This document shows positions 1-1,450 of a stretch of DNA of 1,450 nt, piece after piece. Source of the stretch: Naegleria gruberi (lineage: Eukaryota); NCBI GenBank assembly GCA_000004985.1, contig GG739420.1. The stretch is one strand, 5' to 3'. Position numbers and translations under genes: made by a program. The notes beneath the pieces are model-generated. The model searched no databases. It was not told the DNA's origin and saw only the letters and a list, made by a program, of their open reading frames with translations. Every line of letters begins with the position of its first letter. The stretch's first letter is position 1.

Positions 1-170
1 TTTTTGCCATTTTTTTTTGATATTTAATAGCCAATCATATTTAGAACTGGATTATAAAAGTCAGTTTGAAAGGTTACACAGTTGACAAAGTGACATTCAT
101 GAGAGATCTACATGAAAACAGAGGAAGATAACAAGGTAAACAACGTGTTAAAAATGTGTGGCTTCTCTGT

Positions 171-178
171 GTTTACTT
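171..178. repeat. Left copy of the 8-bp target-site duplication gtttactt.
   Basis: It is identical to 1009-1016 and lies directly outside the left TIR. Confidence 0.6.
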
Positions 179-210
179 CAGGGGGGCGGAAAGTGAAGAA
201 AAATGTTGAG
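179..210. repeat. Left terminal inverted repeat of the element (16-bp perfect core plus an 11-bp subterminal block).
   Basis: See the mobile_element entry. caggggggcggaaagt (179-194) and aaaatgttgag (200-210) are mirrored at 993-1008 and 966-976. Confidence 0.6.
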
Positions 211-329
211 TAAAGGAAAAAATGAACAATAAACAAATATTTTGTAATCCGTAGTTTATTTTTGAGTTTGACATTTTTTGCAGCAAGAAAAGTAACTCAA
301 TGAATTCATACACTATTAAACTTTGTAAT

Positions 330-421
330 CAGCTACCACGAAATGGTAGAATTATTTAAATTAAATCGTCTTTTTTAACAGTAAACAAGATTTAGAACGA
401 TTTGAGAATAGCTATTTTTTT
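330..421 (+). repeat. Internal direct subrepeat, copy A (~92 bp). It is bounded by cagctaccacgaaa at its 5' end and gatttgagaatagctattttttt at its 3' end.
   Basis: The 14-nt block cagctaccacgaaa (330-343) recurs exactly at 515-528. The 23-nt block gatttgagaatagctattttttt (399-421) recurs at 583-605 with one mismatch. Spacing is conserved at 55 versus 54 nt, but the middle sequence has diverged. Confidence 0.5.
334..350. repeat. Short perfect hairpin: ctacca-cgaaa-tggtag (6-bp stem, 5-nt loop) inside subrepeat copy A.
   Basis: ctacca (334-339) is the exact reverse complement of tggtag (345-350). In copy B the 3' arm has degenerated (cgaaagaaaggtta), so the hairpin is present in only one copy. 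Confidence 0.35.
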
Positions 422-514
422 GTTTTTGCTCATATCTCAAGAACGAATGTTGGTTATCAACCTCAAACTAGTAAAGTAACAACCAAGCGAAAAACACTGA
501 TTTTTAAAATTACG

Positions 515-605
515 CAGCTACCACGAAAGAAAGGTTAAAATGTTTCATATCTTCAAATATTGGAGTAAATGCAATTTAAAATGATTTGAGGATAGCTATT
601 TTTTT
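515..605 (+). repeat. Internal direct subrepeat, copy B (~91 bp), paralogous to 330-421.
   Basis: See copy A. The shared end blocks are cagctaccacgaaa and gatttgagGatagctattttttt. Confidence 0.5.
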
Positions 606-965
606 AATTCACCATATTTATTGTTTTTGAAACTTCCTAATCAGTCAATATTTTTATGGCTCAAAATTTAAATAAGAAATTTACTTGTTCACAACATCTG
701 CTTCATAAAAACAAATTATTCCAGGACAAGTAATCTATTAACATATATAATAATGCAATAAAATCTATACAATATTATTATATATTATGTTCGTCCCAGA
801 ATGGACTAGTTTGGTTTAGTTTCTCTTAAAATAGATTATTTATTTAATATTTAAATCAATAATAGTAAAATTCAAGTAGTTTATGATAAGTTATGAAGCG
901 ATTGTAGTTTAGCATTCTATATTGATTGTAAAAACATATATCAACTTGGAATCACTTTGAAGAAT

Positions 966-1008
966 CTCAACATTTTCGCTGGGCTGATACCAACTTTCCG
1001 CCCCCCTG
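966..1008. repeat. Right terminal inverted repeat of the element.
   Basis: The reverse complement of 966-1008 reads caggggggcggaaagt-tggtatcagcccagcg-aaaatgttgag. This matches the left end except for one indel of 8 versus 16 nt. Confidence 0.6.
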
Positions 1009-1016
1009 GTTTACTT
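1009..1016. repeat. Right copy of the 8-bp target-site duplication gtttactt.
   Basis: It is identical to 171-178 and lies directly outside the right TIR. Confidence 0.6.
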
Positions 1017-1040: not shown

Positions 1041-1048
1041 TATAAATA
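1041..1048 (+). promoter_or_regulatory. TATA box (TATAAATA) of the RWP-RK gene core promoter. The predicted TSS is ~1073-1085, followed by a CA-rich ~50-60 nt 5' leader.
   Basis: An exact match to the plant-type TATA consensus ctaTATAAATAc lies 84-91 bp upstream of the first in-frame ATG. The interval between the TATA box and the ATG contains no ATG in the gene frame (the only ATG there, at 1067-1069, is out of frame) and is C/A rich (acaacagcacacaacatctcccacc), as is typical of plant 5'UTRs. Confidence 0.55.
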
Positions 1049-1131
1049 CATCCGTACAAAAAACACATGGTAAAAAAAATGTTCAAAACAACACCGTACC
1101 TATTAACAACAGCACACAACATCTCCCACCA

Positions 1132-1450
1132 ATGTCCTTCATTCACTACAATCCACTGGATGGAACTTCACCAAAGAAGAAGCAATTAACATTGGATGAA
1201 CTGAAGTCCGTTCTTCACTTAAGCCAAGAGCAAGCTGCTAAAGTACTTGGTACATCTTCTTTCAAACTTCGCTCTTTATTCAAGAAGCATAGAGAGGAGC
1301 TTTCTATGGTTAGATGGCCAACACAAAAGGCTAGACAACAAATGCTAACCAATAACAACAACATCATAGTGAAGGAAGAAGAAGAATTTCCTAGAGATGA
1401 AAATGACTTTCCAATCTTTAAAAAATCTCTCATATACAAGCAACAAATCA
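1132..1450 (+). CDS. 5' part of an RWP-RK domain transcription factor gene (3'-truncated by window end). Translation: MSFIHYNPLDGTSPKKKQLTLDELKSVLHLSQEQAAKVLGTSSFKLRSLFKKHREELSMVRWPTQKARQQMLTNNNNIIVKEEEEFPRDENDFPIFKKSLIYKQQI...
   Basis: By hand translation, frame 1 (positions = 1 mod 3) is open from the in-frame TGA at 985-987 to the window end. The first in-frame ATG is at 1132, and no stop follows through 1449. Residues ~18-70 match the RWP-RK domain consensus (L.L.DL.K..HL...EAAK.LG......LK.......RWP..K), including the diagnostic RWP tripeptide at residues 61-63. GC content rises and sequence complexity increases relative to the upstream AT-rich DNA. A TATAAATA box lies 91 bp upstream. The ORF track missed this ORF, presumably because it has no stop inside the window. 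Confidence 0.8.
   Translation, partial: MSFIHYNPLDGTSPKKKQLTLDELKSVLHLSQEQAAKVLGTSSFKLRSLFKKHREELSMVRWPTQKARQQMLTNNNNIIVKEEEEFPRDENDFPIFKKSLIYKQQI

What the first reader, a model, noticed from the sequence alone, without database searches (positions are those of the whole stretch)
171..1016. hAT-like non-autonomous transposon with intact 8-bp TSD inserted ~25 bp upstream of the TATA box of a transcription-factor gene
Perfect 16-bp TIRs (caggggggcggaaagt / actttccgcccccctg) are flanked by a perfect 8-bp duplication, gtttactt. This is direct sequence evidence of a transposition event, and the undegraded TSD suggests it is relatively recent. The insertion displaces all native upstream regulatory sequence of the RWP-RK gene more than ~830 bp away. 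It places element-derived sequence directly against the core promoter, which begins with the TATA box at 1041. Transposon insertions in promoters are a well-known source of altered expression. Here the gene is a putative developmental or nitrogen-response regulator, so a regulatory consequence is plausible. The TIR is unusual in carrying a G6 run, and no family name can be assigned from the sequence alone.
Basis: partly seen in the sequence, partly recalled or inferred. Interest (0 to 1): 0.7.

Follow-up and report, generated by a model that had tools for sequence, protein, structure and literature searches.

The report
Small transposon upstream of Naegleria gene
An 830-bp non-coding cut-and-paste DNA transposon, most likely of the hAT superfamily, sits 115 bp upstream of the start codon of an RWP-RK-like gene of the amoeba Naegleria gruberi; the insertion is real but ordinary, and its effect on the gene is untested.

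Summary
Perfect 16-bp terminal inverted repeats (179-194 / 993-1008) are flanked directly by a perfect 8-bp duplication, GTTTACTT (171-178 / 1009-1016). The joint chance probability is about 1e-8. An 11-nt subterminal inverted motif also links the two ends.

The 830-bp element is AT-rich with GC-rich tips. It has no ORF over 46 aa, no Pfam match in any frame, and a diverged internal duplication. It meets every hAT criterion I could test: 8-bp TSD, terminal YARNG (CAGGG) and a short TIR. Its TSD has TA at positions 4-5, as in Buster-type hAT. Merlin is excluded.

The downstream ORF is 100% identical, apart from poly-Asn length, to predicted proteins of Naegleria gruberi. It carries a borderline RWP-RK domain.

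Not shown:
- Other copies or a transposase partner, because no N. gruberi DNA was reachable.
- An empty allele.
- That the TATAAATA motif is a promoter; the hexamer TATAAA is no more frequent here than chance predicts.
- Any effect on expression.

"Recent" only means less than about 6% divergence.

Verdict: a genuine non-autonomous DNA transposon, a new member of a known kind, of modest interest.

The parts
171..178 (.). Left copy of the 8-bp target-site duplication, GTTTACTT
   Evidence: identical to 1009-1016 and directly abuts the left TIR. TA at positions 4-5.
179..1008 (.). 830-bp non-autonomous DNA transposon (whole element)
   Evidence: Bounded by TIRs and TSD. GC is 27.6% with GC-rich tips. 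Longest ORF lying wholly inside the element is 46 aa. No Pfam match in six frames. No Rfam or tRNA hit. No plasmid match.
179..194 (+). Left terminal inverted repeat, CAGGGGGGCGGAAAGT
   Evidence: (I6); perfect 16/16 complement of 993-1008. The first five bases, CAGGG, fit the hAT terminal motif YARNG (PMC3014272).
200..210 (+). Left subterminal inverted motif, AAAATGTTGAG
   Evidence: (I24); perfect 11-nt complement of 966-976, at 21 nt versus 32 nt from the respective tips. 16 of 2000 shuffles reach this score.
305..440 (+). First unit of a diverged internal duplication (approximate limits)
   Evidence: (D1, D6). Exact or near-exact cores at 330-343 = 515-528 and 380-421 ~ 564-605. About 79% identity over 141 aligned positions; score 80 versus 32.7 +/- 6.6 for shuffles.
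490..625 (+). Second unit of the internal duplication (approximate limits)
   Evidence: Same as the first unit; start-to-start spacing is 184-185 bp.
966..976 (-). Right subterminal inverted motif, CTCAACATTTT
   Evidence: (I24).
993..1008 (-). Right terminal inverted repeat, ACTTTCCGCCCCCCTG
1009..1016 (.). Right copy of the 8-bp target-site duplication, GTTTACTT
1041..1048 (+). TATAAATA motif (candidate TATA box, unverified)
   Evidence: It lies 91 nt upstream of the ATG, but TATAAA is no more frequent than composition predicts, and there are no transcript data.
1132..1450 (+). 5' part (106 codons, runs off the window) of an RWP-RK-like gene of Naegleria gruberi; the domain is at residues 18-68 (nt 1183-1335)
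   Evidence: PF02042, 31.4 bits, gathering score 29.3; 100% identity to the 370-aa protein P0001. P0001 = EFC47857.1/EFC35929.1, N. gruberi; same start codon as the annotated proteins; poly-Asn is 4 here versus 6, 7 and 6.

Best explanation
Positions 179-1008 are a non-autonomous class II (cut-and-paste) DNA transposon of Naegleria gruberi, most likely of the hAT superfamily and possibly Buster-like.

Inferred mechanism: a transposase supplied in trans by an autonomous relative bound the CAGGGGGGCGGAAAGT termini and the subterminal AAAATGTTGAG motifs. It excised the element and joined it to staggered nicks 8 bp apart at GTTTACTT. Gap repair then produced the two TSD copies.

The element carries no gene. 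Its interior is AT-rich filler with an old internal duplication.

The insertion point is 115 bp upstream of the start codon of a conserved RWP-RK-like gene. All DNA formerly upstream of -116 is therefore now 838 bp further away, and element DNA abuts the proximal promoter or 5' UTR.

Shown: the TIR, TSD and subterminal structure; the absence of coding capacity; the host and gene identity; and the insertion position.

Inferred: the superfamily, mobilisation in trans, and any regulatory consequence.
For: - TIR plus TSD: joint chance about 2e-8.
- Subterminal inverted motif: 16 of 2000 shuffles.
- Non-coding.
- hAT criteria from the literature, all met: 8-bp TSD and terminal YARNG (PMC3014272); TIR 10-25 bp (PMC3942097) or 5-27 bp (PMC3517528).
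- The TSD GTT-TA-CTT fits the Buster target consensus nnnTAnnn. The TIR starts CAGGGG, like the Buster-type Mar MITE CAG(G/A)GGTAGGC (PMC3517528).
- Size and structure resemble the 532-927-bp non-autonomous BuT2 derivatives (PMC3942097).
- Host and gene.
- Not vector or plasmid; not a known RNA.
Against:
- One TSD cannot establish a target consensus. TA at two fixed positions has a chance of about 0.12 in this composition.
- The TSD only half fits the Ac consensus nTnnnnAn.
- No paper in the held library reports hAT in Naegleria.
- Other superfamilies also make 8-bp TSDs.
- At 830 bp the element is large for a MITE.
Confidence: 0.7

Rival explanations
1. It is a genuine non-autonomous DNA transposon, but of another superfamily that also makes 8-bp duplications (P, Zisupton, Novosib, or a short-TIR Mutator-like element) rather than hAT.
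For: TSD length and a CA...TG terminus are not unique to hAT (own knowledge: P elements have 8-bp TSDs and CA termini; Zisupton and Novosib have 8-bp TSDs). No transposase or family consensus was available. hAT is not documented for Naegleria in the held literature, and most N. gruberi repeats are unclassified (PMC12344493).
Against: The full terminal pentamer CAGGG fits YARNG, and a 16-bp TIR together with an 8-bp TSD is the classic hAT combination. The TIR start is identical to that of a known hAT MITE. hAT is by far the most widespread of these superfamilies (PMC3942097).
Confidence: 0.2
2. It is a Merlin-superfamily element. Merlin makes 8-9-bp TSDs and has been reported in Discoba.
For: An 8-bp TSD is compatible. 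Merlin occurs in Euglena and kinetoplastids (PMC8101967).
Against: All Merlin families start 5'-GG and have TIRs of 24 bp or more. Here the terminus is 5'-CA and the TIR is 16 bp. The TSD fixes the boundary, so the element cannot be re-phased to start at GG. The Merlin survey text never mentions Naegleria.
Confidence: 0.02
3. It is not a mobile element: the inverted and direct repeats are a coincidence, or the segment is a vector or assembly artefact.
For: The TIR core TCAGGGGGGCGGA coincides with a 13-mer of the pMB1/pUC origin (own knowledge), which is why the 11-mer hits papers that print plasmid and construct sequences. The 16-mer alone occurs by chance in many prokaryotic contigs.
Against: The joint probability of TIR plus an abutting TSD is about 2e-8. 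There is an extra subterminal inverted motif. There is no similarity to any of 72,556 plasmids. The interior composition, 27.6% GC, matches the AT-rich host flanks. All collection hits end within about 21 nt, or lie inside a 3218-aa viral ORF.
Confidence: 0.01

Closest known systems
Mar MITEs of Drosophila willistoni (hAT superfamily, Buster family; PMC3517528)
   Same: Non-coding element with short TIRs beginning CAGGGG, 8-bp TSDs, and a target with TA at positions 4-5 (nnnTAnnn). Often found near genes.
   Different: Beyond the first 6 nt the TIRs differ (GGCGGAAAGT versus TAGGC). The host is a heterolobosean amoeba, not an insect. Copy number and the parent transposase are unknown here. The Buster assignment rests on a single TSD.
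Internally deleted non-autonomous hAT derivatives such as the BuT2 short copies (532-927 bp; PMC3942097) or maize Ds (own knowledge)
   Same: Several hundred bp long; keeps the termini needed for transposition but has no transposase; 8-bp TSD; mobilised in trans.
   Different: No residual similarity to any transposase, so a deletion-derivative origin is not shown. The interior carries a diverged duplication with 184-185-bp spacing instead.
Merlin / IS1016-like elements (PMC8101967)
   Same: An 8-bp TSD is possible, and Merlin is present in Discoba.
   Different: Merlin requires a 5'-GG terminus and TIRs of 24 bp or more. Neither is met.

Membership tests
hAT superfamily (non-autonomous member) | 8-bp target-site duplication | tested here: met
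   GTTTACTT at 171-178 and 1009-1016, perfect and abutting the TIRs. Criterion from PMC3942097 and PMC3014272.
hAT superfamily (non-autonomous member) | Terminal motif 5'-YARNG | tested here: met
   The termini read CAGGG...CCCTG. Criterion from PMC3014272.
hAT superfamily (non-autonomous member) | Short TIRs (about 5-27 bp) | tested here: met
   16-bp perfect TIR. Criterion.
hAT superfamily (non-autonomous member) | Termini shared with an autonomous element encoding a hAT transposase (DDE with a C-terminal hAT dimerisation domain) | not testable with these tools
   No transposase trace in the element. The collection scans gave only chance hits.
hAT superfamily (non-autonomous member) | Several genomic copies with the same ends and different TSDs | not testable with these tools
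   The 16-mer scans of the metagenome and viral collections, and a 21-mer scan of the prokaryotic genome collection, found no related copy. None of these collections holds the host genome.
Buster family of hAT | Target consensus 5'-nnnTAnnn-3' | tested here: inconclusive
   This one TSD has TA at positions 4-5 (criterion). A single site has about a 0.12 chance of matching.
Ac family of hAT | Target consensus 5'-nTnnnnAn-3' | tested here: inconclusive
   T at position 2 fits, but position 7 is T, not A (criterion). A single site is not decisive.
Merlin superfamily | Terminal 5'-GG and TIRs of 24-462 bp | tested here: not met
   The terminus is CA and the TIR is 16 bp (criterion).
MITE (miniature inverted-repeat element) | Small size, no coding capacity, high copy number | tested here: inconclusive
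   Non-coding, but 830 bp is at or above the usual size limit, and copy number could not be measured.
RWP-RK transcription factors (Pfam PF02042), for the downstream gene | Domain match at or above Pfam's gathering score, and the RWPxRK signature | tested here: inconclusive
   The fragment scores 31.4 bits and the full-length P0001 28.7 bits, against a gathering score of 29.3. The signature reads RWPTQK. Homology is supported by a phmmer hit, E = 5e-7, to P0004, which scores 66 bits for RWP-RK.

The most novel reading that the evidence does not exclude
The element may belong to a recently active, so far undescribed hAT (Buster-like) family in Heterolobosea. The insertion may also be polymorphic among the near-identical copies or alleles of this RWP-RK-like gene in N. 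gruberi. In N. gruberi, younger TE insertions are more 5mC-methylated and methylated genes are mostly silent (PMC12344493). The locus would then be a natural filled-versus-empty series for testing transposon-driven promoter displacement or silencing in a deep-branching eukaryote.
Probability: 0.2. Interest if true: 0.5.

Novelty: new member of a known kind. Interest (0 to 1): 0.3.

Why it matters
N. gruberi is a gene-dense, repeat-poor genome: 5.1% repeats (PMC6125883), of which only a small fraction can be classified (PMC12344493). A transposon with pristine hallmarks is direct evidence that cut-and-paste transposition has operated there. It also gives a precise terminal sequence for finding the family and its transposase.

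Its position 115 bp from the start codon of a conserved putative DNA-binding regulator makes an expression effect possible. Otherwise this is an ordinary kind of event, and nothing about the mechanism is new.

Tried and rejected
- Scan of metagenome contigs with the 16-mer TIR. It gave 120 hits, all GC-rich prokaryotic contigs (lowest locus GC 39%), with no similarity beyond about 21 nt.
- Viral-contig scan. Two related contigs share 35 nt at 83% identity, but the match lies inside a 3218-aa ORF at about 50% GC with no partner TIR, so it is chance.
- 21-mer scan of prokaryotic genome contigs: nothing.
- Word-indexed protein search with the 106-aa fragment: nothing, although the identical protein is in the collection; it was found only by the exhaustive HMMER search.
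- The look-up of encoding contigs for P0001, P0009 and P0010: not on record. For the environmental homologs P0003 and P0011, no DNA is held. The empty-site and promoter-conservation comparisons were therefore impossible.
- The RWP-RK gene as a viral or mobile gene: no relative in viral contigs.
- Transposase remnants in six frames of the element: none.
- Known RNA or tRNA: none.
- Plasmid or vector origin: none.
- Literature: the TIR string only hits papers that print plasmid or construct sequences. No paper links hAT with Naegleria. The N. gruberi genome paper is not held.
- An in-frame upstream exon or intron for the gene was considered by eye and dropped: the annotated proteins and the homolog P0002 start at the same Met.

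Full report
**Observation.**
- CAGGGGGGCGGAAAGT (179-194) is the perfect reverse complement of 993-1008. It is the only perfect inverted repeat of 16 nt or more in the window.
- GTTTACTT occurs at 171-178 and 1009-1016 and abuts both arms.
- Only 1 of 2000 composition-preserving shuffles contained any perfect inverted repeat of 16 nt or more.
- With the base frequencies, an 8/8 direct repeat at the two fixed flanking positions has probability about 5e-5. The combination is therefore expected about 2e-8 times per window.
- The two ends are related beyond the 16 bp. AAAATGTTGAG (200-210) is repeated in inverted orientation at 966-976, offset by an 11-nt indel; 16 of 2000 shuffles reach that score, and the direct-orientation control scores lower.

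**Anatomy of the element.**
- Positions 179-1008 span 830 bp at 27.6% GC, with GC-rich tips.
- No ORF lying wholly inside the element exceeds 46 aa, and every frame has 12-27 stops.
- The six stop-masked translations match no Pfam family even at E = 1.
- There is no Rfam family or tRNA and no similarity to 72,556 plasmids.
- The interior holds a diverged duplication, roughly 305-440 versus 490-625, with 184-185 bp spacing. Its cores are 330-343 = 515-528 and 380-421 ~ 564-605. Identity is about 79%, and the alignment score is 80 against 32.7 +/- 6.6 for shuffles.
- The element is therefore non-autonomous and non-coding, with a rearranged interior that predates the pristine ends.

**Host and neighbouring gene.**
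- The ORF from ATG 1132 runs off the window after 106 codons.
- It matches Pfam RWP-RK at 31.4 bits, just above the gathering score of 29.3.
- The word-indexed protein search found nothing. The exhaustive HMMER search found a 370-aa protein that is 100% identical over the whole fragment.
- That protein is a predicted protein of Naegleria gruberi, EFC47857.1 = EFC35929.1, recorded on two contigs. It clusters with two further near-identical N. gruberi proteins, EFC39325.1 and EFC35445.1.
- All start at the same methionine. They differ from the window in the length of a poly-Asn tract: 4 residues here against 6, 7 and 6.
- The full-length protein scores 28.7 bits for RWP-RK, just below the gathering score, and the signature reads RWPTQK. 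Homology to the family is still credible, because the fragment hits a protein that scores 66 bits for RWP-RK.
- An environmental homolog aligns over its full length at 35% identity, E = 7e-75. The gene is therefore a conserved cellular gene, with an N-terminal RWP-RK-like helix-turn-helix and an unannotated C-terminal region.
- No relative was found in viral contigs.
- An RWP-RK factor has been noted in Naegleria fowleri transcriptomics (PMC8296547).

**Which kind of transposon.** The published hAT criteria are an 8-bp TSD and terminal YARNG (PMC3014272), with TIRs of 10-25 bp (PMC3942097) or 5-27 bp (PMC3517528). All three are met.
- The TSD GTT-TA-CTT fits the Buster-family target consensus nnnTAnnn. 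The TIR begins CAGGGG, like the Buster-type Mar MITEs, CAG(G/A)GGTAGGC. One site cannot establish a consensus, because the chance of a match is about 0.12.
- The TSD only half fits the Ac consensus nTnnnnAn.
- Merlin also makes 8-9-bp TSDs and occurs in Discoba, but it requires a 5'-GG terminus and TIRs of 24 bp or more (PMC8101967). Neither is met, and the TSD fixes the boundary.
- Kolobok is known in Naegleria but makes TTAA duplications (PMC9587614).
- P, Zisupton, Novosib and short-TIR MULEs cannot be formally excluded without a transposase. I give them about 0.2 together.

**What could not be tested.**
- All need the N. gruberi genome, which none of the searchable collections holds.
- The 16-mer scan of metagenome contigs returned only chance matches in GC-rich prokaryotic DNA.
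- The viral hits lie inside a giant ORF.
- The prokaryotic genome scan was empty.
- The annotated proteins are not in the gene-position index, and contigs of the environmental homologs have no DNA held.
- No paper in the held library mentions hAT in Naegleria. Repbase could not be consulted.

**Promoter claims.**
- The right TSD copy ends at 1016, 24 nt before TATAAATA (1041-1048) and 115 nt before the ATG.
- The motif is no evidence of a promoter on its own. TATAAA occurs twice on the + strand against 2.9 expected from composition.
- ATGs at 1067 and 1079 open a 40-codon out-of-frame ORF between the motif and the start codon. This sits awkwardly with a transcription start about 30 nt downstream of that motif.
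- The left flank (1-170) has stops in all six frames, so the pre-insertion upstream region was non-coding for at least about 285 bp.
- The insertion certainly moves everything upstream of -116 away by 838 bp.
- Whether that matters is untested. One concrete route is suggested by N. gruberi methylomes: repeats accumulate 5mC, younger insertions more so, and methylated genes are mostly silent (PMC12344493). This is inference only.

**Age.** Intact hallmarks cover 48 positions. The probability of no change falls to 0.05 at about 6% divergence per site. 'Recent' is therefore only a loose upper bound.

**Verdict.** This is a genuine non-autonomous cut-and-paste transposon, about 0.95 certain. It is most likely hAT (about 0.7), inserted in the proximal upstream region of a conserved RWP-RK-like gene of N. 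gruberi. It is a new member of a known kind, or possibly already catalogued in Repbase. It has modest interest, mainly because N. gruberi is repeat-poor (5.1% repeats, PMC6125883; few classifiable) and because the near-identical gene copies may offer filled and empty sites for comparison.

Noticed in passing
window 1132-1450 (poly-Asn at 1351-1362): The gene exists in at least four distinct near-identical versions in N. gruberi: poly-Asn of 4 in the window, and 6, 7 and 6 in EFC47857/EFC35929, EFC39325 and EFC35445, plus a few substitutions. One version sits on a 2,389-bp scaffold. That is more than a diploid's two alleles, so the locus is recently duplicated or split into haplotigs. A heterozygous 830-bp insertion could itself cause such assembly splitting.
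   Followed up: partly
P0001 residues ~110-370 (beyond the window): The region C-terminal to the RWP-RK-like domain is conserved at 35% identity over its full length in an environmental homolog (P0003), including a strongly conserved C-terminal block, GW(D/E)H(V/I)RNMVYRL(S/T)V(S/T)HN. It has no Pfam family and no solved-structure relative. It is an uncharacterised domain.
   Followed up: partly
window 1067-1189: An out-of-frame 40-codon upstream ORF (ATG at 1067, second in-frame ATG at 1079) lies between the TATAAATA motif and the main start codon and overlaps it. If it is transcribed, it would be a uORF; otherwise the transcription start lies downstream of 1079.
   Followed up: no
window 974-982 / 1015-1023 and 812-826 / 1007-1021: Two short direct repeats link the interior of the element with the right junction. 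TTTCGCTGG occurs inside the element and again spanning the TSD and flank. A 15-mer with 87% identity overlaps the TIR tip plus the TSD. This is probably chance, given that 17 such repeat families exist in the window, but it is unexplained.
   Followed up: no
window 178-190: TCAGGGGGGCGGA is identical to a 13-mer in the pMB1/pUC replication origin (own knowledge). This explains why the literature search for the TIR returned papers that print plasmid and construct sequences. The element has no other similarity to plasmids.
   Followed up: yes
L121 1365-1398, L122 6200-6233: Two related IMG/VR contigs share 35 nt at 83% identity with window 161-195 (flank, TSD and TIR). The match lies inside a 3218-aa ORF at about 50% GC with no partner TIR, so I judged it chance.
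   Followed up: yes
tool behaviour: The word-indexed protein search reported no hit for the 106-aa fragment, although a 100% identical protein (P0001) is in the same collection. Only the exhaustive HMMER search found it. Negative results from the indexed search should be treated with caution for short queries.
   Followed up: yes
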